Part shown: in pieces, positions 24,110-64,000 of the stretch
How positions within the stretch are numbered: position 1 is the stretch's first letter
Layout: every line of letters begins with the position of its first letter
DNA from: Candidatus Latescibacterota bacterium
GTDB lineage: Bacteria; Latescibacterota; UBA2968; UBA8231
NCBI GenBank assembly: GCA_965248265.1
Contig: CBDFJF010000002.1
Location: 3,395,052 to 3,459,051, forward strand
DNA: 64,000 bases
Reading direction: 5' to 3'
Notes under the pieces: generated by a model
Told to the model about the DNA's origin: nothing
The model's database searches: none
What the model saw: only the letters and a program-made list of their open reading frames with translations
Program-made: the position numbers and the translations under genes

Positions 24110-24186
24110 GAGCTATTAGCTCAGCTGGATAGAGCGCTAGCCTCCGGAGCTAGAGGTCACAGGTTCGAATCCTGTATAGCTCGCCA
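24110..24186 (+). tRNA. tRNA-Arg (anticodon CCG)
   Basis: Manual cloverleaf: acceptor GAGCTAT/ATAGCTC, anticodon loop CTCCGGA, T-loop TTCGAAT, 3' CCA. Confidence 0.9.
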
Positions 24187-24199
24187 TCTGTCGACAGGT

Positions 24200-24276
<77 letters not shown>

Positions 24277-24385
24277 TCGTTTAGTGAGATTGGGCTAGGA
24301 TTCGTCGACAAAGAGGATTCCTGGCCCATTCTTCGTTCACGTACACGTTCACGGACATGGTTGGTAGGCTGGAGGGTAGGTACGT

Positions 24386-24463
24386 CGGGGTGTAGCGCAG
24401 TCCGGTTAGCGCACCTGCTTCGGGAGCAGGGGGTCGGCGGTTCGAATCCGCCCACCCCGACCA
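24386..24463 (+). tRNA. tRNA-Pro (anticodon CGG)
   Basis: Acceptor CGGGGTG/CACCCCG, anticodon loop TTCGGGA, T-loop TTCGAAT, 3' CCA. Confidence 0.9.
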
Positions 24464-28007: not shown

Positions 28008-28652
28008 TTTAGTGTATATTCACCAGTAGGTCGGTGGGAGCACCGACCTACACCACCCTCCAGGTGGTGAGTGAGTGCCCCCGTTGACCCCTGGTTGACG
28101 GGGGTCTACTCATACCTACCACAAAGGGCGGCCCCCATTCAGGGAACCGCCCTCTTCGTTTTAGGAACCGCAGGCGCATGACTATATCGCGGGTGAGCCC
28201 TCCAATCGGCCCACGACACGCGTAGCGGTCAAGCCTGCGCTACAGGGCGCACGAACGCCCGCCCTTTGATATACCACCGGTCGGGTGGTGGCAACGCTCC
28301 CACGCTGCACCCTCTCGGGCTTCAGGACGGACAAAAGCTGCCCCATCCTCCAGGACGCTTACCGGCTGTACGCCACTCCTTTTACCATCGGTCGGGTAAC
28401 GTTTAAACGATACCACATTCCGCAAGAAAAGTCCACAACTTTCTGCGCCCCAGCAGCTTACTCAATTTCTGGTTCATAGCAATGCGCTATGCTATGCCAC
28501 TGTGCGCCATGAGTGGATTGTTGGTTCTGTGGTGGGGCAAAATCCAACTATTTTGCCTGTATGCCCCACAAACTAAAATCCGGTCATTTTTCGCTTGCGG
28601 CGGGGTGTTTAAATGGCTTTCTTGCTATTCACTGGAGGGTGGTTTAAACGGT

Positions 28653-29441
28653 ATGGCTAATGAGATACAGGTGGCTCGCGAGCTGCGCGAGTTGACTCAA
28701 CGGCAGCTTGCGGAGCGCACCCAAGTGTCGAAATCAGGTATTTCGCGACTCGAAGGTGGTGAGGTGGAGCGAGTCGCGGTGAAGGATGTACGGGCGGTGT
28801 GTGTTGAGCTGGATCTGGCGTTAGAGGCGGTCGTCCCCCACAACACGGACCACCAAAACGATGTGCGAGCGCAGCGCTGGATAGGCCTGATAGCCAACCA
28901 GCTACTGCGGCGCACCTCGTGGCGGCAGCTGCCCGAGGCGCTGAGTCAGTGCACGCAGGATATACATTTCTATAGGCCCGAGATATCGGGCATGTCCATG
29001 ATCCTGGTGGACCATAACCGGCCCAACCATACCCTGTTCTATGGCTGCCTGATCGAGGGGGCACAGCATACGATCAACCTGCACCCGAGTGTCGTGCGGG
29101 ATAAGCTGGACAGTCTTCCGCCTGACACCGGGTACGTAGAGCAGATTAGCGGTAGCCCCGAGTGGTGCGCTGCTTCGTGGCGGCCCTTATGGTGCACGCA
29201 CCACCACTCTGAGTATGGAATATTCACGCTGCACAACCGGGCGGACCCGGAACGCGTCGGGGAAGCAGTCGAAACAGCCAGGCGCTGCAAGCGCGTGCTG
29301 GAAAAAGCTATCGCCCTGATCTACGCACTCTCCGATTTGGAGCGAGACGCCAGCATCATCGATCACGAGCATCGGCTGCGGGCGTTGGAGTCGCAGTTGC
29401 GAAGGGCATTAGAGGAAGAGGCGTATGGTTTAAACGAGTAA
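28653..29441 (+). CDS. XRE/CI-like HTH regulator with C-terminal domain (candidate prophage repressor)
   Basis: LTQRQLAERTQVSKSGISRLEGGE is the N-terminal HTH. 262 aa. Operator-like repeats lie upstream. Confidence 0.65.
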   Translation: MANEIQVARELRELTQRQLAERTQVSKSGISRLEGGEVERVAVKDVRAVCVELDLALEAVVPHNTDHQNDVRAQRWIGLIANQLLRRTSWRQLPEALSQCTQDIHFYRPEISGMSMILVDHNRPNHTLFYGCLIEGAQHTINLHPSVVRDKLDSLPPDTGYVEQISGSPEWCAASWRPLWCTHHHSEYGIFTLHNRADPERVGEAVETARRCKRVLEKAIALIYALSDLERDASIIDHEHRLRALESQLRRALEEEAYGLNE

Positions 29442-32639: not shown

Positions 32640-32714
32640 GCAACGGTAGCTCACTGGTAGAGCATCAGCCCTGAGAGCTGAGTGTAGCGGGTTCAATTCC
32701 CGTCCACTGCATCC
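32640..32714 (+). tRNA. tRNA-like element (degenerate; possible phage tRNA pseudogene)
   Basis: Canonical D-arm TAGCTCACTGGTAGAGC, perfect anticodon stem TCAGC/GCTGA, T-arm GCGGGTTCAATTCCCGT. Acceptor has 2 of 7 mismatches and C at position 33. Confidence 0.3.
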
Positions 32715-50949: not shown

Positions 50950-51807
50950 ATGCCTTGGAATCTGGGCGATGGCGGCGACATCGGAAACGGGTCGCACGGC
51001 GATGCTCACATCACAGGTGGAGTACGGGCGAAGCAGGGGCTGTATGCTGTTTCGACTACACAGAATTACCCGCTGGGGTATCCCAAGCGGTTCGGTGACG
51101 GACGGGCCTATCGGTATACCCACTTTTCCGGTGCGGTTGGACCGGGCAAGCTGGCTGCGATAGACGCAACGTCACAGGACATCACGCAGACGGCAGCCAC
51201 GGCAGTGCGCGACTCAGCTGGCGCGGCTGCGGATGTCGCCACGGGCCAGGAAACGCTCTACTTCCTGGACACGGACAAGTTCACGACGGCCCACTCCGAC
51301 GACACGCTTGCCGGTGGCACTCTGCACATCATCAACAACTCCGGTGGCGCGGTTGCATCGGAGGGACACCAGTACGCCATCAAGTCGAACACGTACACGG
51401 CTTCCACCAGCGTGATGCAAATCGACTTGTACGACGCCACGGCCACGGCCCTCAACTCTGAGGACTTGGTTGGCGTCACCGGCAATCCGTACAAGCAGAA
51501 TGTCATCTACAACGCTGCGGCCGATGATGTGATTTCGGGCGTGACGCTCGTGGACATGGCGGCAGCCGAGTACGGGTGGGTGCAGACGTGGGGTGTGGCC
51601 ACGTGCCTGATGGACGGCACGCCCACGCGGGGCGCTATCCTGACCGGCGCGGATGCGGTCGATGGTGCTGTGCAGGTGATTGGTGGTGGCACGGTGGCTT
51701 CAGAGGAGAACCTGCTTGACCTGACCACGGAGCCCGTTGTCGGTTACGCACTGCAGGTGGTCACCACGGCGGGGTATATCCCGCTGTACTTGCAGATTGC
51801 TCCATGA
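50950..51807 (+). CDS. virion structural protein (decoration-like, Ala/Thr/Gly-rich)
   Basis: 285-aa ORF between the capsid gene and the glycosyltransferase island. Confidence 0.4.
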   Translation: MPWNLGDGGDIGNGSHGDAHITGGVRAKQGLYAVSTTQNYPLGYPKRFGDGRAYRYTHFSGAVGPGKLAAIDATSQDITQTAATAVRDSAGAAADVATGQETLYFLDTDKFTTAHSDDTLAGGTLHIINNSGGAVASEGHQYAIKSNTYTASTSVMQIDLYDATATALNSEDLVGVTGNPYKQNVIYNAAADDVISGVTLVDMAAAEYGWVQTWGVATCLMDGTPTRGAILTGADAVDGAVQVIGGGTVASEENLLDLTTEPVVGYALQVVTTAGYIPLYLQIAP

Positions 51808-52577
51808 GTTGTCGCGCCTTCACGAAGGTCAGGAACGAGGAGGCGATGATTGCCGACACCCTCGATACCTGGGCCGACGTGTGCTGCGATGGGATTCACG
51901 TGTATCTCGATAACTGTACGGATGGGACCGGTGAAATCTGCCGGGACCATCCTGCAGTTGTTGAAGTGATAGAGTCCAACCTGTACGACCCTGATCGACC
52001 ACGGTCAGACTGCTACGGACGGCAAACGCTGTGGCGTTCGGTGTCCCGGTTCGTGGGGGCCGAGGATTGGGTGTGCTACTTCGATGCGGACGAGCACTTG
52101 CACGACTTCCCGCTCGATGTGCTCGACGTGAGCGAAGTGAGGGTGATCGCACCGCATTGGTGTGATGCCTACATCACGGAAGAGGATGAGCGCATTGATG
52201 ACTATCGCAAGCGTGAGTGGATCAGTACGGAAAGGCGGATCATCCCAATGTTTTTTAGAGCTGGCGGGTGCAGGGGTTACACGCGCCCCGACCAGCGCAT
52301 CATGGACACGGTGGTGACACCCAGGCTGGACCAGTTTGGCTTGATAAAGCACTACGGATTGGGCCACTCGGTGGAGCAGTGGGAGCGCAAGGTAGCCTAC
52401 TACCGCGATGAGTGGCCGCAGTATTCAGCCAAGTGGGCCGCGAGAGCGGGGAAGGCCGTGCGTAGGCAGCCTTACTTCTCAGTCAACTGTAGAAGGCTGG
52501 GAAAGTTCAGCGATTACAGCAGGGAGGTAAGGGCCAGCAATGATCGTCGTTTGCGTGCCTTTTCTCAAGCCGCATAA
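51804..52577 (+). CDS. glycosyltransferase family 2-like (GT-A fold)
   Basis: KVRNEEAMI...VYLDNCTDGTGEI and YFDADEH (DxD) are GT2 hallmarks. Confidence 0.6.
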   Translation: MSCRAFTKVRNEEAMIADTLDTWADVCCDGIHVYLDNCTDGTGEICRDHPAVVEVIESNLYDPDRPRSDCYGRQTLWRSVSRFVGAEDWVCYFDADEHLHDFPLDVLDVSEVRVIAPHWCDAYITEEDERIDDYRKREWISTERRIIPMFFRAGGCRGYTRPDQRIMDTVVTPRLDQFGLIKHYGLGHSVEQWERKVAYYRDEWPQYSAKWAARAGKAVRRQPYFSVNCRRLGKFSDYSREVRASNDRRLRAFSQAA

Positions 52578-53325
52578 AAAGTTCCTGCCCCACTTCATTG
52601 AGTGGTACGCCGGGAACAAACTCAAGCACGAGCTGGAGCTGGTGTGGCAGATGTATCGCCCGTTGCACAAGGCCCAACGCGAAGGAGTGAAAGCGGCACA
52701 GCGACTGGGCGCATCCCACATCTTGTTCACGGAAGACGACCAATGGGGGTTCCCGCTGGACGGGCTGGACGTGTTACTAAAAGAGGACAAGGATGTCATC
52801 GGGTTCAGTACCTACATGCGCTCGTATCCCCACCTGCCCATGCACATGCGTAAGGTGGATGAGTCCATACCGCTGGTTGATGAGCAGATGCGCAAAAACC
52901 TCAAGCCGGTGGCAGTGGGGGATGGGCCTGACGTACAAGCGGTCGATTTAATTACCTGGGCGTTTACCCTGGTAAAGGTGGACGTGTTTAAACGATTGGA
53001 AAATGACCCCTTTGCCCAGTGGGGAGAGTCACCGACCGACAGTTATTTCAGCCAGTACTGTGATGACGTAGGCATTAAGCGGCACACGCATTTCGGCTAC
53101 ACCATCGGCCACGGCGACGTGGCCCCCGAGCACGTGCCGTTCAGTCGCAGGATGTGGGAATCTATTCATTCGGCGGCGGGCGTATTCGCGGAGGATGCTG
53201 TTACCGCTGACGCCCGACCGGAAATCAACGACGCCAAGCTGCACGAGAGGGAGATGGAAGCTATGGAGGCAGATGCACTGGCAAATCGACCCACGGACTT
53301 GCCGTGGATGGTGGAGGCAGCATGA
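52540..53325 (+). CDS. GT-A-like glycosyltransferase (putative)
   Basis: VCVPF...FTEDDQW has a DxD-like core. 261 aa. Coupled to the flanking GT genes. Confidence 0.45.
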   Translation: MIVVCVPFLKPHKKFLPHFIEWYAGNKLKHELELVWQMYRPLHKAQREGVKAAQRLGASHILFTEDDQWGFPLDGLDVLLKEDKDVIGFSTYMRSYPHLPMHMRKVDESIPLVDEQMRKNLKPVAVGDGPDVQAVDLITWAFTLVKVDVFKRLENDPFAQWGESPTDSYFSQYCDDVGIKRHTHFGYTIGHGDVAPEHVPFSRRMWESIHSAAGVFAEDAVTADARPEINDAKLHEREMEAMEADALANRPTDLPWMVEAA

Positions 53326-54209
53326 AAATCCTGCTCACCAATCACAGCCTGAAGGATGTCGGCGGTACCGAGAAGTGGACGTACACGATGGCGCAGGAGT
53401 TGCAACGGCGCTTGCATGAGGTGGAGGTGTTCACCTTCATGCGGGGCACAACCTCTGAAAAAATAGAGGACTTCTTCCCGGTGGTGGATGACCCAAGCCT
53501 GGACGGGTATGACCTCATCATGTCGAACCACAACACCTGCCTGTCACAGGTGCAGCACATCCCTGGCTACAAGGTGCATACCTGCCACGGGCCGAAGCAC
53601 CAGCTGGAGCAGCCAGTCGGAGGAGCGGACGCCTACGTGGCCGTCTCTCCAGAGGTGCGCAAGCACGGGGCCGAGCTGGGGTTCAAGATGAAGGTTATCG
53701 GCAACGCGCTGGACCTCGACATGTTCGCCCCTCCGCCGCAGACAACCGAAGTCAACGTGCGCCCTCGCGTGTTGTCCATGTGTAAGGCGGTTGGGGCCAG
53801 CAATATGATAGAGGACTGCTGCAAGGCGGCGGGATTCGACTACGATACGGTGCACTACCTGGAGCGGCCTGTATGGGACACCGCCGACCTCATCAAGCAG
53901 GCTGACATTGTGGTTGGCGTGGGGCGCACGGCACTGGAAGGGCTGGCTTGCGGCAAGGCGGTATTCAACTTCGACGGGCGCACGAAAGAACCAAGAGGCG
54001 ATGGGTGGATTACGAATCGAAACGTCGATGAGTTGTCGCGGTTCAACTTTTCCAGCCGCGCCACTTTCAAATACTGGACGGTACCTGAGCTGACGGACGC
54101 GCTGTTAGCGTTCAGGCCACAGTCATGGTCGCCGCAGTGGGTACGGACTAACGCCAACATCACCGACGCGGCGTTGCGCTACTTATCCCTCGTGCCGGTG
54201 GCCGCGTAA
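53322..54209 (+). CDS. glycosyltransferase family 1/4 (GT-B fold)
   Basis: MKILLTNHSLKDVGGTEKW...EGLACGKAV is a GT4 architecture. ATGA overlap with the upstream gene. Confidence 0.65.
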   Translation: MKILLTNHSLKDVGGTEKWTYTMAQELQRRLHEVEVFTFMRGTTSEKIEDFFPVVDDPSLDGYDLIMSNHNTCLSQVQHIPGYKVHTCHGPKHQLEQPVGGADAYVAVSPEVRKHGAELGFKMKVIGNALDLDMFAPPPQTTEVNVRPRVLSMCKAVGASNMIEDCCKAAGFDYDTVHYLERPVWDTADLIKQADIVVGVGRTALEGLACGKAVFNFDGRTKEPRGDGWITNRNVDELSRFNFSSRATFKYWTVPELTDALLAFRPQSWSPQWVRTNANITDAALRYLSLVPVAA

Positions 54210-54256: not shown

Positions 54257-54625
54257 ATGGCAAAGCAAGAAGGTTCCACTGTATCCGCGACCGCCCCTGC
54301 CGCCGCACCTGCCAGCGATGGCTTGCAAAGTCTGGTGGCCATGATTCACAAGGCGGGTCCAGAAGCTAAAGAGGCTATGCGCTCGGCGCTGGGAGTAGGC
54401 AAGGCGATTCAGCCTCCCAAGAATCAACAGAGCAACGCGGACGCCAAGCGTATCGCCTACTCGGTGGGCGAAATCGTGCACCCGGAAGGGTTTCTACCCA
54501 AGCCGTCCGAGCACCTTGTCGAGCAGGGACCAGAAGCGGTGGCGGAGTGGCAGGCATCCTGGCTGGCCCGCAATCGCAATCCGTCCAGCAAGGCGGAAGA
54601 GTACGCGGCCGTGGCCGTTGAGTGA
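54257..54625 (+). CDS. hypothetical virion-module protein
   Basis: 122-aa ORF. Confidence 0.4.
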   Translation: MAKQEGSTVSATAPAAAPASDGLQSLVAMIHKAGPEAKEAMRSALGVGKAIQPPKNQQSNADAKRIAYSVGEIVHPEGFLPKPSEHLVEQGPEAVAEWQASWLARNRNPSSKAEEYAAVAVE

Positions 54626-54845
54626 CAAGAAGCGACAGGTCAACGCGGCTTCCTTTTTCGGGGAGCAGTTGATAATTGGCGATGCGCAAATCGACACCAT
54701 TGACGTGGGATCCGTGCTCAAGCTGTCGAACTTGACGACAGCCGAGCGGGATGCGCTGACAGCCGCCAATGGCATGGTGATCTACAACACGACGGACAAC
54801 AAGTTTCAAGGATACGAGAACGGCGCATGGGCCAATCTGATTTAG
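54618..54845 (+). CDS. hypothetical small protein
   Basis: TTG start overlapping the upstream stop. 75 aa. Confidence 0.25.
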   Translation: MSDKKRQVNAASFFGEQLIIGDAQIDTIDVGSVLKLSNLTTAERDALTAANGMVIYNTTDNKFQGYENGAWANLI

Positions 54846-54874: not shown

Positions 54875-55795
54875 GTGACACTTGCAACAGCAATGGAGAT
54901 GCTGCTCAAGCGTGTCGGCCTGGACGAGACGAACACCACGTTCAAAAATCAGGCCCGGCTGTATCTCAATATTGCAGCCAAAGAGCTGGGTGGGCTGGCC
55001 GATTGGTGGTGGCAGTACAAGCAGAGTTCTATCGTTACCACCAGCACGCTCACCGTATCGTCTGTTTCGGGCACGTTCGTGGCCGCCGAGACGATCACGG
55101 GCGGCACCTCTTCCCGCACTGCAACGATAGGGGCGCTCTACGACGCCACCAATGCCCCTACCGCGCTGTTTTATCGGTCGCCTTCCAATACCACTGACTT
55201 CACCAGCGGCGAAACCATCACGGGCGGTACTTCTGGAGCTACCGCTACGGCTGGGGCTGATGTCATTACCCGCCAGTACCAGCTCGCCTCTGATGTGCTC
55301 ATGCCCTACAGCTGGCGCGATGAGACGAATAACCGTCGCCTCCTCATTGCCTCGTGGGACGAGATGGACCGGGCCGACCCCGACCAGGATCAAGAGGGGG
55401 ACGCTCGCTGGATAGTACCCGAAGGCATCGACAGCGCCACGGGCTACCAGATTGTGGCCGTCTTTCCGCTGCACTCCACCAGCAACGAAACCTTCCGCTA
55501 CCGCTACTACAGCTACATCCCCGATTGGACCTCCGGTAACGACGCCACCTCGCTGGATGGCTGGATCCCCCAGCTGCTGCAGCCAGCGCTGATCTACGCC
55601 GGGGCGGCGCTCTATAAGCAAGAGAAGGGCGACGACGAGGGCGCAGAACAAGAGCGCATCGAGTACGACCGGCAGGTAGACCGTGGACTCAAGGTTAACT
55701 CGCAGATGTTCGGGAACCGCAGGCGGGCGCGTTCAGACGGCGCTGTTGCACCGGGCTTTCGGTTCTACGTCCAGGAAGGGTCGTTGAGCGCGTAA
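54875..55795 (+). CDS. head-tail connector/adaptor-like protein with internal Thr/Gly-rich tandem repeat
   Basis: N-terminus MEMLLKRVGLDETNT resembles gp6-like connectors. Insertion AETITGGTSSRTAT.../GETITGGTSGATAT... Confidence 0.45.
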   Translation: MTLATAMEMLLKRVGLDETNTTFKNQARLYLNIAAKELGGLADWWWQYKQSSIVTTSTLTVSSVSGTFVAAETITGGTSSRTATIGALYDATNAPTALFYRSPSNTTDFTSGETITGGTSGATATAGADVITRQYQLASDVLMPYSWRDETNNRRLLIASWDEMDRADPDQDQEGDARWIVPEGIDSATGYQIVAVFPLHSTSNETFRYRYYSYIPDWTSGNDATSLDGWIPQLLQPALIYAGAALYKQEKGDDEGAEQERIEYDRQVDRGLKVNSQMFGNRRRARSDGAVAPGFRFYVQEGSLSA

Positions 55796-57324
55796 TGCCT
55801 ATCGACGGCGACTCAATCATTCATGGTCCGTGGACGGGTGGTGCCATCTACAACCTGCCCCCAGAAAACCTGGAGGAGGACCAGTGCACGGACACCATCA
55901 ACGTGCGCATCGGGCAGGCAGGTGAGGCCGAGAAGCGACGCGGCTCGCTCAATTACAAGTCGGTGCGCCAGAACATCGCCGCCGACCCCAACGTGATGGC
56001 GTGCGGGCAGTACCGGGAATCAGCGACATCCACCCCAGTGTTCAAGTCGGTAGCCGCCGTGTTTTACGAGTACACGGGTGGCTCCTGGGTTGACCGCACC
56101 GGGGGCCAGACGATTACAGCGGACAAGACGTTTGAGTGGGCGGGGGCTAACGGCACGCTGGCGCTGACCAACGGCACGGACGCTCCGCTGAAGTGGACGG
56201 GCGCGGGCAATAATCTCGCATTGCTCGATGTGGACTCTCAGTTCACGACGGCATTGCACGTCGCCTATTGGGACAACCGGTTGTGGATGGCCAATACCAA
56301 CGCCAACACCGACCGGCTGTGGCACTCCGATTTGGGCGCTATCGAAACCTGGGCGGCGACCAGTTTCTACAACCTGGGCTCTGAAGTTATCGGGCTCATG
56401 CCGGTGTCGGACTCGTTGGCCATTCACACGGTGGACGGGATTCACACGCTGACACCCACGGGCAATAGCACCATCCCGTACCAGCGCCAGCAGCAGACCC
56501 AGCAGGCCAGCGTATCGGGGCGGGCCATCCTCACGGTTCCAGGGAACCGTCAGTTCTTTGTGCAGGACGAGGGGATTTACGAATGGGATGGCGACAAGGA
56601 GGTGACCAAGGCGTCGGTCGCGTTGGATGATGGCTACTGGGACAGTTTAAACGAGGCGCAGCTGGATAGCACGTTCGCGGTGTACTACCGCATTAACAAC
56701 GAGCTGTGGTTCTGGCTGCCCTACGGCACGTCGCAGACCAACATGAACGACATCATGGTCTACAACCTGGAGAAAGAGCGATGGCATGGGCCGTTTCGGG
56801 GCAACGCGTCAACGACCTACTACGAGCGAGCCTGCGCCGCCTTGATCGACAGCAAACCACACGCTGGAGACTTCCTTGGCGAGGTGGTCGATCACGACCC
56901 GGTGGACACCTACACCGATGTGAACGACGCCACCACCAACGCCATTCACGCGCAATTCACGACCAGCGCCAAGGCACCTGAAGGCGAGGCGAAGCGGCTC
57001 AAGTGGTTGTTCTCTCGTAGCTACTTCGACTCGGTGGGTGACTTCGATGTGACTCTGACGCAGCTGTCGTCGGGGCTGTCGGGTACCAGCGAAACGGTGG
57101 ACATGGGGGCGTCGGGTTTCACGCTGGACAACGACAAACTGGACCTCACGTCACTGGGCTCCATTCGCGTGCAAGCCAAGGACGCGGAGCTAAGTGGCTA
57201 CGACCCTCACTCATCGGTCACGGTCACGCAGAACGTGTCTGCTGAGTTCTTCCGCTACCGGAAGATAGTCCAGGTGTACAAGGAAATCGGAATCAAACGT
57301 AAACGAGCAGCAGGAGTCAGTTGA
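55795..57324 (+). CDS. virion protein (tail accessory/beta-rich)
   Basis: 509-aa ORF in the tail-side module. Confidence 0.45.
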   Translation: MPIDGDSIIHGPWTGGAIYNLPPENLEEDQCTDTINVRIGQAGEAEKRRGSLNYKSVRQNIAADPNVMACGQYRESATSTPVFKSVAAVFYEYTGGSWVDRTGGQTITADKTFEWAGANGTLALTNGTDAPLKWTGAGNNLALLDVDSQFTTALHVAYWDNRLWMANTNANTDRLWHSDLGAIETWAATSFYNLGSEVIGLMPVSDSLAIHTVDGIHTLTPTGNSTIPYQRQQQTQQASVSGRAILTVPGNRQFFVQDEGIYEWDGDKEVTKASVALDDGYWDSLNEAQLDSTFAVYYRINNELWFWLPYGTSQTNMNDIMVYNLEKERWHGPFRGNASTTYYERACAALIDSKPHAGDFLGEVVDHDPVDTYTDVNDATTNAIHAQFTTSAKAPEGEAKRLKWLFSRSYFDSVGDFDVTLTQLSSGLSGTSETVDMGASGFTLDNDKLDLTSLGSIRVQAKDAELSGYDPHSSVTVTQNVSAEFFRYRKIVQVYKEIGIKRKRAAGVS

Positions 57325-57327
57325 GCT

Positions 57328-59910
57328 ATGAGTGAATACTACTTTCCAACAGATAGAGAGCGCCCCCGTCCTCCCCCGCGACTGAGGGAGGACCAGAAAA
57401 TAGATATGCCGGTGTGGGAGTTTTTGAAGCCAAGTCAATTCCAAAGCTTCGAGGACTTGCTGAAAAGAGCAGAGTCGTTCAGGCCCAGCGCTGGTTTGAC
57501 GAGTGCGCTACAGGGTGCCCCAGCGGCAGGCAAGGCACTGCAGGGGTTCAGCAACTTCCGCTCGCCCTCTGGTTTTAACCAGTTCGTTGGACAGGTGGGT
57601 ACTGCTGAAACTCAGATAGGCGGGTTTCCGCAAGGGCTCCAGACTGCCCTTGGAGACGCCAAGAGTTTGACGGGCGAGCTGAGAACAGCGAACGACCTGT
57701 TGGGTGGTGGTTCGTTCGGCGGCGAGCCCTTCGGTGGCATCATCGCTGAAGCGCAGGATCAGGTTAAGGGGGTGCAAGACGAGGTAAATAAGCTGAGAGT
57801 TGATCCCAATCAGCTGCTGGGACCGAACCTCGAAGCCGACCTACTGGCAGCCCTGCAGGGTCGCAACATGCCGACCATCGACCCCAACCGTTTTATTGAC
57901 GAGCCGGGGTTGGATACGGCTATTCGGCAGCTGCGTCCTGAAACCATTGACCCAAATCTGTTGCTCGATGAGACGGGACTTAACACTGCCGTGCGTGATC
58001 TTCGACCCGAAACGATTGACCCGAGCCGGTTGCTTGATGAGGGCGGGATCAATACCGCGATTGGCAACCTCCTTCCTCAACAGATTGATCCCAGCCTGCT
58101 GCTTAATGAGGGTGGAATTGACGACGCTATCGCGGGCCTTCGTCCTCAGACAATAAAATCAGACCTACTGCTGAACGAAGGTGGCATCAACGACGCTATC
58201 GCAGGGCTGCGCCCAACACAGCAAATCGACCCTGGCCTGCTACTTAATGAGGGCGACATCAACGCTGCCATTGGAAACCTGCTGCCTCAACAGATTAACC
58301 CCGACCTACTGCTTAATGAGGGTGGAATTGACGACGCTATTGGAAACCTGCGTCCTCGACGAATTGACGCTGGCCGCTTAATGCCGGGTGGTTTTGATCT
58401 GGCCAACGCGGTACGTGATCTCGACGTGCCTCAGGTAGAAGCCGGTCGCCTGCTCCCAGGCACAGGTGCGCTGGAGGATGAGCTGGCACGGACACCGATT
58501 GACCGGCTGTCGCCAAGCAGGATATTGCCTGAGTTGCCTGGGTTGAACGAAGCCATCCAGGCACTGGAAGTTGATCGCATAGGAGCTGGACGGCTACTTC
58601 CAGGTGAGGGTGAGCTGAGCGCAGAGCTGAGACGCACGCCCATCGAAAGGCTGGCGGCCAGTCGGGTGCTGCCTGAAAGGCTGAATGAGGCGTTGCGCAC
58701 GGCTGTCTCACGGCTGAGTACGGACGAGGTGCTGCCCAGGGGTGATCTGAACGATGCACTCCAGGACCGCGTAGGGCGTCTCACGGAGGATCAAATCTTC
58801 CCCACTGGTGACTTGAATGCAGCTCTCGGCGGGCGTGTAGATAGGCTCACGGCGGGTGACGTGCTACCTACGGGCGATTTAAACGCTGCACTGCGTGACC
58901 GGGTGGACCGACTCGGGGCAGGCGATGTGCTGCCCGAGGGGGATTTGGGTGGGGCTCTGCGTGATCGGGTAGGACGCCTTACCGAGGATGACATCTTTCC
59001 TGGCGGTGATTTAAACGCCTCGCTGCGCGACCGGGTGGGTGGTCTGACGGAGAGCGACATATTCCCAGATGACTTGCAGTCCATTCTGGAGGGCCGGGTC
59101 AACCCGCTGCAGGCAGATGACCTCATCCCACGGACTGGGGCGCTGGCCGATGTGTTGCGTGACCGCCGTCCTGGCCTGCTCGACCTACTGGAGTTCCCTG
59201 AGTTTACCAACCTACTGGACGAGCGCTTGCCCGAGGGCAGTATCCCAGGTATTGAGGCGCAGCTGGCTGGGCTCGCAGAGCAGGGTGGAACGGGAGGTGG
59301 GGGAACTGGGACTGGAGGGACAGGCACGGGCACTACTGTGCCAGCCCCTGCGACGGGACTCGACGCCTTTCTTGAACAGTTGCAGGGAGTCGTTGGGAAC
59401 CTGACCACTGGACCGGAGACATCCGACGAGCTGCGCCAAGACCCGCTCACGGCGTCCCTGTTGGCTGATTTTGAGGATCAGAGCGGGCGTGATCGTTCAC
59501 AGGCGATGGAGGACTTGCAGCGTCTGGGCGTGCTGGGCGACGGCGATACCGCTGACGTGCTGGGTGAGCTGACAAGCGGCCAGCGTCGAGGTGAGTTCGA
59601 CATCCTGGGCGATGCGGCTGAGCGCTTCCGCACCGACCGTAGCCAGGGCTTGGGTGCTGGCGTGGACTTGTTCGGCGCAGCTGGCCAGCGCGAGCTGGGC
59701 CTGGGTCAGCTGGGCCTGCAGGGACAGGAGATGGATATGGCCATCCTGTCGCAGGTGGCATCACTGCTCGACCCGAACCTCCACCTGGATGCCAAGGGAG
59801 GGAAGAACCTGGAACTGGCAAGTATCCTGCTTTCACTCTCAGGGCTGCCGCCTGACAAGCAAGCGCAGCTGCGCAAAGCATTGGGATTACCCCCCCAGTC
59901 AGGGAGCTAA
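57328..59910 (+). CDS. 860-aa virion protein built of three families of 22-24-aa tandem repeats (about 25 copies)
   Basis: Repeats like IDPxLLLNEGGIxxAIxxLRP, RLLPGxGxLxxELxRTPIxRL and DxLPxGDLNxALRDRVxRLTxx. Gly/Thr-rich linker GGTGGGGTGTGGTGTGTT. Confidence 0.6.
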   Translation: MSEYYFPTDRERPRPPPRLREDQKIDMPVWEFLKPSQFQSFEDLLKRAESFRPSAGLTSALQGAPAAGKALQGFSNFRSPSGFNQFVGQVGTAETQIGGFPQGLQTALGDAKSLTGELRTANDLLGGGSFGGEPFGGIIAEAQDQVKGVQDEVNKLRVDPNQLLGPNLEADLLAALQGRNMPTIDPNRFIDEPGLDTAIRQLRPETIDPNLLLDETGLNTAVRDLRPETIDPSRLLDEGGINTAIGNLLPQQIDPSLLLNEGGIDDAIAGLRPQTIKSDLLLNEGGINDAIAGLRPTQQIDPGLLLNEGDINAAIGNLLPQQINPDLLLNEGGIDDAIGNLRPRRIDAGRLMPGGFDLANAVRDLDVPQVEAGRLLPGTGALEDELARTPIDRLSPSRILPELPGLNEAIQALEVDRIGAGRLLPGEGELSAELRRTPIERLAASRVLPERLNEALRTAVSRLSTDEVLPRGDLNDALQDRVGRLTEDQIFPTGDLNAALGGRVDRLTAGDVLPTGDLNAALRDRVDRLGAGDVLPEGDLGGALRDRVGRLTEDDIFPGGDLNASLRDRVGGLTESDIFPDDLQSILEGRVNPLQADDLIPRTGALADVLRDRRPGLLDLLEFPEFTNLLDERLPEGSIPGIEAQLAGLAEQGGTGGGGTGTGGTGTGTTVPAPATGLDAFLEQLQGVVGNLTTGPETSDELRQDPLTASLLADFEDQSGRDRSQAMEDLQRLGVLGDGDTADVLGELTSGQRRGEFDILGDAAERFRTDRSQGLGAGVDLFGAAGQRELGLGQLGLQGQEMDMAILSQVASLLDPNLHLDAKGGKNLELASILLSLSGLPPDKQAQLRKALGLPPQSGS
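57880..59060 (+). repeat. coding tandem repeats (unit about 66-72 bp)
   Basis: Recurrent DNA units, e.g. CTGCT(A/G)CTTAATGAGGG(T/C)GG(A/C)AT(T/C)(G/A)ACGA(C/T)GCTAT. Confidence 0.6.
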
Positions 59911-59913
59911 GTC

Positions 59914-60255
59914 ATGCCTGAACCTGTCACGACAATGATTGCCACGCAGATGGCGCTCAAGGCATTGGGTTCCATCCTGGGTGGCCGTGATGCCAAGAAG
60001 GCCCGCAAGCGGGCAGCTGAAGCCCAGGCGCACGCCAACCTCGTGCCCAATGGCGGACAGCGGATAGTACCGGAGCTACCGCAGCCAAACTTTGCCCAGG
60101 TGCTGGGCAGCGGACTGGACCCGCTGATGGCTCTGCTGTTGCAGCGCAGCGGGGGGAACGCCCTGCCTGCGGATAAAGCGAAGGCCCCCGTTACGGCACC
60201 CAGCACAGCAGGAAGCAACCCCTTGCAGGACTTGATGAGGATACTGCGACGATGA
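59914..60255 (+). CDS. hypothetical virion protein
   Basis: 113-aa ORF. Confidence 0.4.
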   Translation: MPEPVTTMIATQMALKALGSILGGRDAKKARKRAAEAQAHANLVPNGGQRIVPELPQPNFAQVLGSGLDPLMALLLQRSGGNALPADKAKAPVTAPSTAGSNPLQDLMRILRR

Positions 60256-61643
60256 CACTGGCAGCGACACAGGTAGACCCGGCAGTCCGGGCACAGCTGG
60301 AGCAGCAAGCTGGCCGTCCGCTGTCGGACGAGGAGATACAGCAGCTACTCAACGAGCTGACCACGCCACAGATCAGTGCGTCCACCTCGTCGGCAGCCAC
60401 GGCCACGGCACCCGCAGCGCAGGAGGAGAGTGGCGGCCTGATGTCCAAGGTGGGTGGGCTGTTTAAACGGGATGACGGCCTGGGGTTCCGGTTGCTGCAG
60501 TCGCTGGGCAATGTCGGCTCTGGTATCTCGCGGAGCCGTGCCATCAGCAACGCCAACAAAGCCAACGCTGAGTCGGGCGCTCATGCCAACCTCGTCAACG
60601 CCCTGGCTCGACGCCGGGTGGCTTCGGGTACGCGCACCCAACCGACGCTGGGCCTGATGGGGCAGCTCTCAGGGGCCGTGGGCGAAGTGGGACAGGCTGG
60701 GCTGGATATTCAACAGCTGGGCAGAAAGGAGGAGCAGCGGGGGATTGACAACGCGCAGGCCGAGCGTAGAACGCGGGCCACCGAGTTGAGCGCACAAAGC
60801 AGCCTCCTGCGTTCACTCGGGAAGTCCCCGACTGTAAAGACGCTGACGAAAGAGCAGCGCGATTCTATCGTGCGCCTCATCAAAGGGGGCACGGACCTGG
60901 ACTTGAGCGTGTTTACCAAAGCAGACCAGCTGGCCATTCGTGGTCTCGTTGACCACCCGGAGCCGCAGGAGTTTGAGTTTACGGAGGGGAACGAGAAGGA
61001 GCTACACAGCATCGGCTACCGCAATTCCAAGGCGGACGCCAAGGAGTTGATGCCTGACTGGGTGCCCGAAGCCCACAGGCAATCGGCTATTGGGATGATC
61101 GTGGCGGGGCAGGATGATTTCGAGGTAGAGGACGAGGACGAGTTGGACCCGGACCCCGCCGCCGCGCAGTCGGCGTTCCTCCTGGATGAGCTTGAAAAGA
61201 CATGGGACGAAGCGTCGTTCACCGGGCTCGGTAAGAGCGCAGCTGATGCTGTGGGGCTGGACTTCGATGAGGGCGGCTTTACCCGACGACTCGCCCCTGC
61301 TTCGGCAGACCTGAATGACCAGCTGGAGACAATGGGGCTGGCGCTGGCCAAGGAGCTACAGGGTGCACGTGCCTCCGACCTCGACCTCAAGACAGCGAAA
61401 AAGGCACTGCCGAGACAGACCGACAGCGACGAGCTGGCGAAGCGCAAGTTTAAACGGCTGCGCGAGGCAGCGAGGGTCAAGCGGGAGGAGATGGAACAGG
61501 GTATCGACCAGCCTTTAATCATCGGCACTCGGGCGGGCGTTGCTGTTCTGCGCACGGACAAAGACTTGACGGTGGACGATACACGCGAATCCGAAACAGA
61601 GGATACGGGCAGTACTAACTTCGATGCGGTTAAGGTTGAGTGA
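60252..61643 (+). CDS. virion/ejection-like protein
   Basis: 463-aa ORF, ATGA-coupled. Confidence 0.45.
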   Translation: MTLAATQVDPAVRAQLEQQAGRPLSDEEIQQLLNELTTPQISASTSSAATATAPAAQEESGGLMSKVGGLFKRDDGLGFRLLQSLGNVGSGISRSRAISNANKANAESGAHANLVNALARRRVASGTRTQPTLGLMGQLSGAVGEVGQAGLDIQQLGRKEEQRGIDNAQAERRTRATELSAQSSLLRSLGKSPTVKTLTKEQRDSIVRLIKGGTDLDLSVFTKADQLAIRGLVDHPEPQEFEFTEGNEKELHSIGYRNSKADAKELMPDWVPEAHRQSAIGMIVAGQDDFEVEDEDELDPDPAAAQSAFLLDELEKTWDEASFTGLGKSAADAVGLDFDEGGFTRRLAPASADLNDQLETMGLALAKELQGARASDLDLKTAKKALPRQTDSDELAKRKFKRLREAARVKREEMEQGIDQPLIIGTRAGVAVLRTDKDLTVDDTRESETEDTGSTNFDAVKVE

Positions 61644-63712
61644 TGGCTAAGATATACCGCTCACTGGAAGAACTTGGACGCGCCGTGATCGCTGCCCGTC
61701 CTGACCTGGAAGGCAGAAACCCTGAAGAGGTTGGGCGTCAGGTGGAGCCACAGCTAACAGGGGGCGACCGTGTGGTGGATGAGTTCGGTGACATCGACAT
61801 CGGCAATACGGTCGGCAACTTCCCCAGCGATTTTACAGACACCGCAGGGGAAAGCTTCGAGGGGATGAAGGAGGTAGTCGGAAGCCCTATCGAAAAGGGC
61901 GTTAAGCCATTCGCCTCACTCGCTCTTGGTGGCGTGTCGGAGTTGGGCAGGGAGTTTGAAAAGCCGGGGCTGCTTAACACACTCCTGAGCAATCCGAATA
62001 TGCCGGTGGCACCCCTGATAACCATGCTGGGGAAGGGGCTTGATAAAATAGATACCAGTGCCAGTCCGTTCGGTGGCCAACAAACCAGACCCCTGGTGAC
62101 CGACGAGGACCGCACGCTCGCTCGCACGGCAGCGGCGGATTTCAAAGAGTCATTCCACCCCGCCAATCTTGAACAGCGTCCAGCCAACGCTCTGGCCAAC
62201 GCCACGTCGGTGCTGCCGGTCGGGCCAGGGCACATCCAGCGCTTTGGCCTGTTGAATAAACTGGGTCGCACGGGTAGGGCTGCGTCAAAAGTCGCCAGCG
62301 TAGCCTCTCCTGACCTTGCCGTCGAGCAGGCCATCACGCTCTTGCCGCAGCTGGTGAAAGGCGCAGCCAAGCGAACCCCTGCGGCACTGCGCAAGGTCGC
62401 AGGCAACGAGAAGGTGCAGGCCGCACTACGACCGGTCAAGGAGTTCGGCGATAATCTGAAGGTCGGCGGTCGGAGCTTGAAGGGGGAAGCGGTGCAGTCG
62501 GGGCTGGGCATCACGACGGGTCGCTCGCGTGAGTTCATTCACCAGATTTTCGAGCGGGCCAAGAGCCCTCAGTTCCGTGAGTTCTTTCGCACCGCTCGTA
62601 GGATGAGCGAGTCCGACTTGACCCAGAGGTTGCAGGCGCAGGCGTTCAAGGGGATGGAGAAGCTGCAACAAAAAGCGTCTGACATGTACGAAAAGGGCAC
62701 TCTCCAATTTTTTGGCAATAAAGGGCGTAATGCGCTCAGGTTACCCGGTGAGGGGCTACACGACAGCATTATCAACTCGCTGGATAAGGTAGATGTGAAG
62801 ATCAACCCGAGGACGGGTCGGCTGACCTTTGGCAAATCGGCCATCACAGCGCTTGGCCCGGCTCGTGGGGTACTACAGCAGGAGCTACGACCCATCCTGC
62901 GCCTGCTCAAGGTTAAACAGGGCACGCCAGCGCACATGATTCACCGCCGCCGTCAGCTGCTTGATGATGCCATCTCAACGCTGTCGCCCGATTCGCAGAT
63001 CAGCGACACCGCACGCGGGGTGCTCACAGAGATTCGCAAGGGCGTGGCCGACTACCTTGAAAAGGGACTTGGGGACGAATACGTCACTGCGATGAGGGAC
63101 TATCGTACGCTGGCCAATCTGCGTACGGAGCTTAACAACAACCTGCGGCTCGCACCAGGACAGCTGGACAAGCACGGTAACATTGCGGGCAACACACAGG
63201 AGCAAGCGCTGCGTGCAATGGAAGGCGCGATTATGCAGTCAGGCACTGGCTCGAATCGCTTGAAGGCACTGGAACAGCTGGAGCAGGTGAGTGGAGTTAA
63301 GGGGATTGTAGACCTGCAGCTGGCTCGATTGGCGCAAAATATCGCAGGTGGCGGACTCATCGTTCGCAACGAAATTGCGCAAATCGGGCGCTTGGTCTTT
63401 GGCGCAGCGTTCACTGGTGGCACGGGGGGCATCAGCGGTGGCCTACTGGCGTTGCCAGCTGCCACTCTGTTCAGCCCACGATTTGTGTCGGAGTACCTGC
63501 TAATTGCGCAGGGTGGAGTGCGGGAGAGTGTCGCGAGGATGTCAGCCGCGACGAAGGCCAGCCTGCAGCGCAAGGCCAAGCGGGTGTCACGTGCCATGGC
63601 GGCGATGGATAAGGCCACTGGCGGCGAGCTGCGCCAGCGTGCTCTACGGGAGAACTGGAACGTGTCGCAGATGCTGGAACGGTTTGAGATACAGGAGGAG
63701 GACGGGGAGTAG
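61640..63712 (+). CDS. virion/ejection-like protein
   Basis: 690-aa ORF, ATGA-coupled. Confidence 0.5.
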   Translation: MMAKIYRSLEELGRAVIAARPDLEGRNPEEVGRQVEPQLTGGDRVVDEFGDIDIGNTVGNFPSDFTDTAGESFEGMKEVVGSPIEKGVKPFASLALGGVSELGREFEKPGLLNTLLSNPNMPVAPLITMLGKGLDKIDTSASPFGGQQTRPLVTDEDRTLARTAAADFKESFHPANLEQRPANALANATSVLPVGPGHIQRFGLLNKLGRTGRAASKVASVASPDLAVEQAITLLPQLVKGAAKRTPAALRKVAGNEKVQAALRPVKEFGDNLKVGGRSLKGEAVQSGLGITTGRSREFIHQIFERAKSPQFREFFRTARRMSESDLTQRLQAQAFKGMEKLQQKASDMYEKGTLQFFGNKGRNALRLPGEGLHDSIINSLDKVDVKINPRTGRLTFGKSAITALGPARGVLQQELRPILRLLKVKQGTPAHMIHRRRQLLDDAISTLSPDSQISDTARGVLTEIRKGVADYLEKGLGDEYVTAMRDYRTLANLRTELNNNLRLAPGQLDKHGNIAGNTQEQALRAMEGAIMQSGTGSNRLKALEQLEQVSGVKGIVDLQLARLAQNIAGGGLIVRNEIAQIGRLVFGAAFTGGTGGISGGLLALPAATLFSPRFVSEYLLIAQGGVRESVARMSAATKASLQRKAKRVSRAMAAMDKATGGELRQRALRENWNVSQMLERFEIQEEDGE

Positions 63713-63724
63713 GACTACTATGGA

Positions 63725-64000
63725 GTGCCAAATATAAGTAGGACCAAAACGTGGTCGAGTGAGGAAACGCTAACGGCGTCTGATTTAAACGCCGAGTTCG
63801 ATGGCATCCTCGCCGGGACCAACGACAACAGTCTCGATCAGGACAACCTCAGCAAGACCGACGACTACACGATGGCCACGATCATCGTGGGGTCGGGTAT
63901 ATCCTCAGCCGATGGGCAGCTCCATGTCCATCTGGCCAGCGCTGGCACTGTTGCTGCCAATGCTTCCTACAATGATGTCGTCATCGAGAACGACGCCGCC
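63725..64000 (+). CDS. tail fibre/spike protein, N-terminal part (3' end outside window; start uncertain)
   Basis: Open frame ...PNISRTKTWSSEETLTASDLNAEFDGILAGTNDNSLDQDNL... running to the window edge. GTG 63725 is a candidate start. Confidence 0.4.
   Translation, partial: MPNISRTKTWSSEETLTASDLNAEFDGILAGTNDNSLDQDNLSKTDDYTMATIIVGSGISSADGQLHVHLASAGTVAANASYNDVVIENDAA

What the first reader, a model, noticed from the sequence alone, without database searches (positions are those of the whole stretch)
57328..59910. 860-aa virion protein composed almost entirely of three families of 22-24-aa tandem repeats
About 25 units (IDP.LLLNEGGI..AI..LRP; RLLPG.G.L..EL.RTPI.RL; D.LP.GDLN.ALRDRV.RLT) are encoded by roughly 70-bp DNA repeats. 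A Gly/Thr linker and a C-terminal domain follow. The protein sits between connector/tail-accessory and ejection-like genes. Repeat-built virion proteins can act as length rulers or extensible ejection conduits. The DNA repeats also make the gene prone to copy-number change, which gives a tunable length.
Basis: seen in the sequence. Interest (0 to 1): 0.55.

Follow-up and report, generated by a model that had tools for sequence, protein, structure and literature searches.

The report
Repeat-built podovirus tail/ejection-module protein
A prophage gene next to the tail-nozzle gene encodes an 860-residue protein with 21 tandem ~23-residue units between conserved ends; it belongs to an unnamed phage family in which the repeat block gains, loses and swaps whole units, but its function is still only inferred.

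Summary
The ORF (57328-59910, +, 860 aa) and its repeats are real. I count 21 units, not about 25. They cover residues 157-638, which is 56% of the protein. The three "families" are subfamilies of one unit.

The gene is translationally coupled between a nozzle/hub gene with PDB homologues and a gp14-like gene. The order is adaptor, nozzle, this gene, three ejection-position genes, tail fibre.

It has no Pfam, PHROG or PDB match and no homologue in 50,697 deposited phages. A phmmer scan of 1.84 billion proteins found 73 proteins, and 68 share only its helical C-terminal domain. Most full-length members carry their own, different tandem array. In more than 40 uncultivated viral contigs the homologue always follows the nozzle gene.

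Close relatives differ by clean 23-residue unit indels. One relative has a different array between nearly identical ends. Length change is therefore shown on evolutionary time scales. Each allele recurs unchanged across samples, so the array is not hypervariable.

Best reading (0.4): a head-packaged ejection protein with the array as a modular spacer. Main rival (0.25): a giant tail-needle-type plug. Virion presence, fold and any ruler function are untested.

The parts
57328..59910 (+). Whole ORF of the repeat protein ('REP'): 860 aa, pI 4.4, net charge -57, no Cys
   Evidence: RBS and tight coupling to both neighbours
57328..57795 (+). Non-repetitive N-terminal region (res 1-156). It includes a pre-array helical module (about res 70-156; motifs GFSNF and GGGSFGGEPFGG) shared with part of the family. 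Most family members start with M-x(1-5)-G-[ST]-F; here the start is MSEYYF.
   Evidence: helices 80-97, 100-124, 135-155; pLDDT 63-77
57796..58362 (+). Array subfamily A: 8 units of 23-27 aa (res 157-345), consensus IDPsLLLNEGGIddAIgnLRPqt
   Evidence: z = 25.5; TRF 69-bp repeat at 58074-58357
58363..58713 (+). Array subfamily B: 5 units of 21-24 aa (res 346-462), consensus [IL]gAgRLLPG.G.L..EL.RtpI.R
   Evidence: z = 10.4
58714..59241 (+). Array subfamily C: 8 units of 21-23 aa (res 463-638), consensus LTegDvLPtGDLNaALRDRVdR, degenerating towards the 3' end
   Evidence: z = 18.6
59284..59334 (+). Gly/Thr hinge (res 653-669, GGTGGGGTGTGGTGTGTT). Relatives have Gly/Pro/Asp/Thr-rich linkers here, some with 4-6 G-X-Y triplets.
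59335..59907 (+). Family-defining C-terminal domain (res 670-860), predicted all-helical: helix 706-733, GVLxxGD loop, then a 74-residue helix 740-813. Invariant residues are P706, G734, R754, A764 and R766.
59440..59712 (+). Most conserved core of the C-domain (res 705-795). It keeps 46-60% identity in the distant clade, where the nozzle is only 40-43% identical.
54875..55795 (+). Context: head-to-tail adaptor (306 aa). Its 66%-identical homologue in L005 passes the Pfam SU10_adaptor threshold.
55795..57324 (+). Context: nozzle/tail hub (509 aa)
   Evidence: Profile hits PDB 8ZKK 'nozzle gp16' (E = 2.7e-14) and 9NWI chain Y (Pa223 tail hub gp59, E = 2.7e-11); phrog_3287 at 2.3e-20; Pa223 assignment
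59914..60255 (+). Context: small basic protein (113 aa) in the gp14 position. The weak match to the T7 gp14 N-terminus is below the Pfam threshold.
   Evidence: PF24072, E = 0.013; phrog_805 'internal virion protein', E = 0.0017
60252..61643 (+). Context: gp15-position protein (463 aa; 692-791 aa in relatives), no detectable family
61640..63712 (+). Context: gp16-position protein (690 aa), no detectable family
63725..64000 (+). Context: start of the tail-fibre gene, which runs off the window. The L005 orthologue carries a Peptidase_S74 chaperone domain.

Best explanation
REP is a structural-operon protein of a temperate podovirus prophage. It is the first gene of the fast-evolving DNA-delivery block that lies between the nozzle and the tail fibre.

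Most likely it is packaged in the head as an ejection (pilot) protein. In this reading the strongly conserved helical-hairpin C-domain is the anchoring or oligomerising module, for example docking on the portal or on the other ejection proteins. The N-terminal motif and pre-array module form the other functional end. The 21 helix-plus-loop units form a modular spacer whose length is set by unit number.

On infection the protein would leave through the portal-tail channel with the gp14-, gp15- and gp16-position proteins and add a length-adjustable segment to the trans-envelope apparatus.

Shown: gene position and translational coupling; the family architecture; rapid divergence in step with the ejection-position genes; whole-unit indels and array replacement among relatives.

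Inferred: virion packaging, ejection, oligomeric state, and spacer or ruler function.
For: - Gene order adaptor-nozzle-REP-113 aa-463 aa-690 aa-fibre mirrors T7 gp11-gp12-gp13-gp14-gp15-gp16-gp17, where gp13-16 are internal virion proteins.
- 3-nt spacers and RBSs show operon coupling, and promoter- and terminator-like sites are no more frequent than in shuffled sequence.
- Against the nearest relatives, REP is 33% (N-dom) to 50% (C-dom) identical and the gp15- and gp16-position proteins are 34-38%. Nozzle, adaptor, portal, MCP and TerL are 66-84%. This matches the rapid divergence of ejection proteins relative to portal described in PMC8954989.
- Family sizes of 534-1357 aa resemble the size plasticity of gp15/gp16 homologues.
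- Composition is acidic and Cys-free, with helical predictions and no β-rich or enzymatic domain. Distant-clade members are long, highly charged, apparently all-helical proteins (judged from composition, not predicted) with PAPAPA linkers.
- The C-domain core is conserved at the level of MCP/portal (46-60%), not of the tail proteins (40-47%). In Pa223 and DEV a helical ejection protein binds around the portal.
- A separate tail fibre gene exists.
Against: - There is no proteomic or structural evidence that the protein is in virions.
- No similarity to T7 gp13/14/15/16 or P22 gp20/gp16 was found by Pfam or hhalign. These were weak tests with single-sequence templates.
- In the lineages whose hub is homologous to this nozzle (Pa223) or whose adaptor is homologous (SU10), and in P22, the gene right after the hub is the external tail needle, not an ejection protein.
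- With three ejection-position genes already present, a fourth is not required.
- The array fold is unknown (pLDDT 30-48).
- Array length varies about four-fold across the family (about 7 to 30 units), which is hard to reconcile with a strict ruler.
Confidence: 0.4

Rival explanations
1. REP is a giant tail-needle-type central plug or fibre. In this reading it is a trimer that closes the nozzle/hub channel from outside. The array forms an elongated shaft, the conserved C-domain forms a coiled-coil tip or base, and the protein is released at the start of infection.
For: - In P22 (gp10 then gp26), SU10 (gp17 then gp18) and Pa223 (gp59 then gp58), the gene immediately after the hub/nozzle gene encodes the trimeric needle.
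- The window's nozzle is homologous to the Pa223 hub and the adaptor is SU10-like.
- The C-domain has a 74-residue helix typical of coiled coils.
- Relatives' linkers contain 4-6 G-X-Y triplets, a hint of trimerisation.
- Low monomer pLDDT is what intertwined fibres usually give.
Against: - Known needles are about 200-280 aa (208 aa in Pa223, 233 aa in P22), whereas this family spans 534-1357 aa.
- Needles conserve the N-terminal plug and vary at the C-terminus; here the C-terminal core is the conserved part.
- No similarity to P22 gp26 was found.
- The best structural homologue of the nozzle is labelled as a nozzle with a distinct 'release' state (8ZKK/8ZKM), which may gate without a plug.
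- There is no β-rich knob.
Confidence: 0.25
2. REP is a non-virion assembly factor or molecular ruler. In this reading it acts like a tape measure, a scaffold or the YscP ruler. It would template or time assembly of the tail or ejection-protein complex and would then be discarded.
For: - Conserved ends around a variable-length repeat array recall tape measure proteins and the type III secretion ruler YscP (my own knowledge of those systems, not tested here).
- P22 gp14, in the same gene block, is annotated 'head morphogenesis' in the P22 record; that it is an assembly factor absent from virions is my recollection, not tested here.
Against: - No long tail exists to be measured; this is an adaptor-plus-nozzle podovirus module.
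- Array length differs by whole units between phages whose nozzle and adaptor are nearly the same, so no matching measured structure is evident.
Confidence: 0.1
3. REP is an external adhesin or tail fibre (a receptor-binding or surface-exposed protein). In this reading its repeats diversify under host-range selection.
For: - The array is hypervariable and is exchanged as a cassette.
- In Pelagibacter phage HTVC106P, the only deposited phage with a detectable nozzle homologue, the large ORF two genes downstream of the nozzle gene (a 49-aa ORF lies between) looks fibre-like and repeat-containing by eye; the record annotates it only as a hypothetical protein.
Against: - The conservation pattern is the reverse of fibres: the C-terminal part is conserved and no variable distal domain exists.
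- There is no β-rich, Ig-like or carbohydrate-binding domain.
- A dedicated fibre gene with an S74 chaperone follows the block.
Confidence: 0.07

Closest known systems
T7 internal virion proteins (gp13 by position; gp14-gp16 as the ejectosome)
   Same: - The gene order is the same: adaptor, nozzle, X, small protein, two large proteins, fibre.
- Both diverge rapidly and vary in size, as reviewed for ejection proteins.
- Both are predicted helical.
   Different: - No sequence or profile similarity was found.
- T7 gp13 is 138 aa and has no repeats.
- No T7 ejection protein is built from tandem arrays.
Tail needle/plug of P22 (gp26), SU10 (gp18) and Pa223 (gp58)
   Same: - The gene lies directly after a homologous hub/nozzle gene.
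- Both are likely elongated, with long helices.
   Different: - REP is 3-4 times larger.
- The conserved end is C-terminal rather than N-terminal.
- hhalign found no match to gp26.
- The shaft is a tandem array rather than a continuous coiled coil.
Portal-bound helical ejection proteins (Pa223 gp54, DEV gp72)
   Same: Both have a helical module, and the C-domain core is conserved to a degree comparable with the head and portal proteins.
   Different: - No homology was demonstrated, and binding to the portal is speculation.
- Those proteins lie in the gp15 position and are not described as repetitive (one search found no mention of repeats).
Tape measure proteins of long-tailed phages and the type III secretion ruler YscP
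   Same: - The logic is similar: conserved ends flank a repetitive middle whose length changes by unit duplication and deletion. This comparison rests on my own knowledge of those systems.
- Whole-unit indels are documented here.
   Different: - This is a podovirus module with no tail tube, sheath or chaperone frameshift.
- No measured structure has been identified.
- There is no sequence similarity.

Membership tests
T7-type internal virion/ejection proteins (gp13-gp16) | Gene lies in the block between nozzle (gp12) and tail fibre (gp17) | tested here: met
   Order is adaptor-nozzle-REP-113-463-690-fibre, compared with the T7 record
T7-type internal virion/ejection proteins (gp13-gp16) | Sequence or profile similarity to gp13, gp14, gp15 or gp16 | tested here: not met
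   No Pfam or PHROG hit. hhalign of the C-domain profile against T7 gp13-16 gave probability below 1%. The test is weak because the templates are single sequences.
T7-type internal virion/ejection proteins (gp13-gp16) | Present inside the capsid and ejected into the host | not testable with these tools
   Needs virion proteomics or cryo-EM
P22-type tail needle (gp26 / SU10 gp18 / Pa223 gp58) | Encoded immediately downstream of the hub/nozzle gene | tested here: met
   There are 3 nt between the nozzle stop codon and the REP start codon. The hub is homologous to Pa223 gp59.
P22-type tail needle (gp26 / SU10 gp18 / Pa223 gp58) | About 200-280-aa trimeric coiled coil with a conserved N-terminal plug | tested here: not met
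   REP is 860 aa. The first 33 residues are Pro-rich and low-confidence (pLDDT below 50). The conserved part is C-terminal. hhalign against gp26 found nothing. Oligomeric state could not be tested.
Tape measure protein | Encoded in a long-tail module (tube, chaperones with frameshift, distal tail protein) | tested here: not met
   Neighbours are a podovirus adaptor and nozzle. No tube or sheath family was found in the module genes I scanned.
Tape measure protein | Repetitive, length-variable, mostly helical middle | tested here: met
Known protein repeat classes (LRR, LRV, TPR, pentapeptide, TAL, collagen) | Match to the curated repeat models, or G-X-Y register for collagen | tested here: not met
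   Pfam gave no family at E <= 0.1. The window's Gly/Thr linker is not in G-X-Y register. Relatives have only 4-6 triplets.
Tail fibre / receptor-binding protein | Conserved N-terminal anchor, variable distal receptor-binding domain, β-rich fibre folds | tested here: not met
   The pattern is the reverse, with a conserved C-domain. No fibre domains were found. A separate fibre gene is present.
The unnamed 'REP C-domain' family itself (uncultivated viral contigs) | About 190-aa helical domain with invariant P, G, R, A, R; gene directly after the nozzle gene; repeat array upstream (or downstream in the distant clade) | tested here: met
   68 of 73 phmmer hits share the domain. Synteny holds in every viral contig that extends upstream as far as the nozzle gene. 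Arrays are shown.

The most novel reading that the evidence does not exclude
The family is a previously undescribed class of length-programmable component of the podovirus DNA-delivery machine. A conserved anchoring domain and a conserved N-terminal motif are held apart by a tandem-unit rod. Unit number, and even unit type, would be exchanged like a cassette to match the span the phage must bridge in a given host (envelope or capsule thickness). That would make it a podovirus counterpart of the tape measure.
Probability: 0.15. Interest if true: 0.75.

Novelty: new variant of a known kind. Interest (0 to 1): 0.5.

Why it matters
Ejection and plug proteins are the least understood parts of short-tailed phages. 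They are usually recognised only by size and synteny.

This family is absent from Pfam, PHROGs, the PDB and all 50,697 deposited phage genomes searched. It is present in dozens of uncultivated viral contigs, at least one of them from a Tara Oceans marine sample, and in this prophage.

The family offers a natural series of length variants: 7 to about 30 units, clean unit indels, and swapped arrays between near-identical ends. Such a series could test directly whether the length of a delivery-apparatus component matters for infection. The prophage sits in a sequenced 4.14-Mb bacterial chromosome. If that strain is available and the prophage can be induced, this uncultivated group would become experimentally accessible.

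Tried and rejected
- **Family scans of REP and members:** Pfam and PHROG scans of REP, nine full-length family members, eight distant-clade members and 29 C-domains gave only spurious summed-repeat hits.
- **Deposited phages:** tblastn of REP, its C-domain and two distant C-domains against INPHARED phages found no match.
- **Word-indexed protein search:** three runs were swamped by repeat words and returned only the query itself or 12 fragments.
- **GTDB species-representative genomes:** two scans found nothing, so no host could be named. Exact look-ups of REP and of the host MreB also failed, and cluster look-up gave no names.
- **PDB sequence profiles:** nothing for REP, its C-domain or the gp15- and gp16-position proteins.
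- **AlphaFold2:** the full-length model has mean pLDDT 48 and the array is unusable. The C-domain model (pLDDT 69) gave no Foldseek hit in the PDB better than E = 4. In BFVD it found only two unnamed homologues. The afdb50 library was unavailable.
- **hhalign against T7 gp13-16 and P22 gp26/gp20/gp16/gp10:** nothing.
- **Phage VP1 (PDB 8ZKK):** no paper was found.
- **Rejected ideas:**
  - A tape measure protein proper (podovirus module).
  - LRR or collagen membership (no model match or register).
  - A fast contingency locus (diverged DNA units, stable alleles across samples).
  - An ORF artefact (conserved, syntenic homologues).
Full report
**Observation**

The ORF 57328-59910 (+) encodes 860 aa. 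It has an AGGAG ribosome-binding site. Only 3 nt separate it from the stop of the upstream gene and from the start of the downstream gene. Promoter- and terminator-like sites in the region are no more frequent than in shuffles. It is therefore an internal gene of an operon.

The protein is Leu-, Gly-, Asp-, Ala- and Arg-rich and Cys-free, with pI 4.4 and net charge -57.

Residues 157-638 parse into 21 head-to-tail units of 21-27 aa. The periodicity is far beyond chance: z = 25.5, 10.4 and 18.6 for the three sub-arrays against the best lag of 1000 shuffles. A unit HMM scores exactly 21 units positively.

The array covers 56% of the protein, not nearly all of it.

At DNA level the units are 37-81% identical and the longest exact repeat is 32 bp. 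TRF reports only 4.1 copies of a 69-bp unit. A Gly/Thr hinge (653-669) and a C-terminal domain (670-860) follow.

**Context**

The window is a bacterial chromosome segment. MreB, MreC, MiaA and a tRNA cluster occupy it up to about 25.5 kb. A prophage follows, whose late operon runs from TerL (44976) to the window end. The only database copy of the protein lies on a 4.14-Mb contig.

- Upstream of REP, the 306-aa protein is an adaptor. Its 66%-identical homologue passes the Pfam SU10_adaptor threshold.
- The 509-aa protein is a nozzle/hub. Its profile hits PDB 8ZKK 'nozzle gp16' at E = 2.7e-14 and the Pa223 tail hub chain of 9NWI at E = 2.7e-11.
- Downstream lie a 113-aa basic protein with a sub-threshold match to the T7 gp14 N-terminus, then 463-aa and 690-aa proteins with no detectable family.
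- The tail fibre gene starts at 63725. Its orthologue carries an S74 chaperone domain.

The order adaptor-nozzle-X-small-large-large-fibre equals T7 gp11-gp17. It also equals the hub-needle-ejection-protein order of P22, SU10 and Pa223.

By major capsid protein, the nearest cultured phages are only 26-30% identical: Bradyrhizobium ppBjS10J-1, Stenotrophomonas BUCT555 and Myxococcus Mx8/Mx9. tblastn with three C-domain queries matched no deposited phage, these included; the one I inspected, ppBjS10J-1, has no REP-sized gene after its nozzle-sized gene.

**The family**

REP has no Pfam, PHROG or PDB match and no tblastn match in 50,697 deposited phages.

An exhaustive phmmer scan of 1.84 billion representatives found 73 proteins. 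Of these, 68 share only the C-terminal domain.

Full-length members range from 534 to 1336 aa. Most have their own tandem array, and unit periods cluster at 22-27 aa, with others at 30, 34-35, 55 and 70 aa. Many units are variations on hGxGDhLP...L...L...RP, but the consensus differs from protein to protein. Nearly all full-length members also begin with M-x(1-5)-G-[ST]-F.

C-domain homologues were found in 43 IMG/VR viral contigs and 10 metagenome contigs. None was found in 185,579 species-representative genomes or in deposited phages.

In every viral contig that extends upstream as far as the nozzle gene, the homologue directly follows that gene. The TerL-portal-scaffold-MCP-adaptor-nozzle order is conserved.

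In a more distant clade (nozzle about 41% identical) the protein is 1100-1357 aa. There the conserved core lies in the middle, followed by highly charged repeats of 55-80 aa (apparently helical, judged from composition) and PAPAPA-type linkers.

**Evolution of the array**

Against the closest relatives, the proteins fall into two groups:

| Proteins | Identity to closest relatives |
|---|---|
| Nozzle, adaptor, portal, MCP, TerL | 66-84% |
| REP N-domain | 33% |
| REP C-domain | 50% |
| gp15- and gp16-position proteins | 34-38% |

REP therefore belongs to the fast-evolving delivery block. This is the behaviour reported for ejection proteins (PMC8954989).

Within the relatives:
- L004 and L006 have arrays 97% identical apart from two clean 23-aa unit indels.
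- L004 and L009 have N- and C-domains 93.5% and 89% identical, but their arrays are built from different units (23-aa versus 24-aa, 48% identity).
- L004 and L006 share the array but have N-domains only 80% identical.

Modules are thus shuffled, and arrays expand, contract and are replaced.

L055 carries two very homogeneous arrays, 13 x 27 aa plus about 12 x 24 aa. Yet the 787-, 743- and 819-aa alleles each recur at the same length in contigs from several samples, with identical sequence where compared. The variation is evolutionary, not a rapid switch.

The C-domain core keeps 46-60% identity in the distant clade. There the nozzle and adaptor are 40-47% identical, and the gp16-position protein is 23-26% in the three contigs where it is detectable. 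That level is comparable with MCP and portal and implies a constrained partner.

**Structure**

AlphaFold2 on the full protein gave mean pLDDT 48, and 30-48 over the array. It predicts one short helix per unit. The MSA contained no array homologues and only a monomer could be modelled, so the array fold remains unknown.

The C-domain alone (pLDDT 69) is a helical hairpin: helix 706-733, a GVLxxGD loop, then a 74-residue helix. Foldseek found nothing in the PDB better than E = 4. In BFVD it found two unnamed viral homologues at 34-35% identity.

hhalign of the family profiles against T7 gp13-16 and P22 gp26, gp20 and gp16 was negative. These were weak tests.

**Interpretation**

The shown facts support a structural-operon protein of the DNA-delivery block. 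It has conserved ends and a modular middle whose length evolves.

I rank a head-packaged ejection protein first (0.4). The reasons are co-divergence with the ejection-position genes, helical, acidic and Cys-free composition, size plasticity, core conservation at head/portal level, and a separate fibre gene.

A giant needle-type plug is the main rival (0.25). In the lineages with a homologous hub or adaptor, the post-hub gene is the needle.

Assembly ruler (0.1) and external adhesin (0.07) are less likely.

The roughly four-fold range of unit number argues against a strict ruler and for a tolerant spacer.

**Novelty**

Repeat-built, length-variable virion proteins are a known kind (tape measures, fibres, needles). 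A tandem-array protein in the podovirus nozzle-to-ejection block, with cassette-like array exchange, is not in any library or paper I could search. I rate it a new variant of a known kind, with interest 0.5.

Noticed in passing
window 51804-52577 and 53304-54209 (also 52540-53325): Two glycosyltransferase genes (GT2, PF13704, E = 1.6e-9; GT4, PF13439, E = 6.5e-10) sit inside the virion operon between the capsid-proximal genes and the adaptor. Related viral contigs (L005, L010) go MCP-g285-g122-adaptor without them. They may be an inserted moron or a virion or host-surface glycosylation function.
   Followed up: partly
window 54257-54625 and 54516-54845; L005 8483-8833 and 8607-8951: A conserved pair of overlapping ORFs in different frames lies just upstream of the adaptor. 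They could be two genes or a programmed frameshift. The second ORF ends ...LTTAERDALTAANGMVIYNTTDNKFQGYENGAWANLI.
   Followed up: no
window 60252-61643; L005 14153-16525; L002 7118-9493; L009 6553-8631: The gp15-position protein is also strongly length-variable: 463 aa here against 790, 791 and 692 aa in relatives that share about 34% identity over the common part.
   Followed up: partly
window 24110-24463, 32640-32711, 28482-29441: A tRNA-Arg/Pro/Pro cluster lies beside host mreBC and miaA. A lone tRNA-Ser(tga) at 32.6 kb lies next to phage-like genes, and an HTH repressor-like gene is at 28.5 kb. The left prophage border and att site are probably near the tRNA-Ser but were not mapped.
   Followed up: partly
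window 57328-57345 and family N-termini (P0009-P0049, L038): Nearly all full-length family members start with M-x(1-5)-G-[ST]-F (for example MAGSFGF, MAQGSFLNF, MANGSFDY, MSTGSFLN). This short conserved N-terminal motif could be a docking, processing or packaging signal. The window protein has MSEYYF.
   Followed up: no
L055 833-4273: The closest C-domain relative (57% identity) carries two very homogeneous arrays in one protein, 13 x 27 aa and about 12 x 24 aa. This shows recent, independent amplification of two unit types.
   Followed up: partly
window 50950-51807 (g285) and homologues: The gene after the major capsid protein is also fast-evolving: 32-38% identity where MCP is 84%. It has a weak 'tail assembly protein' PHROG hit in L005. 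It may be a surface-exposed head decoration or fibre.
   Followed up: no
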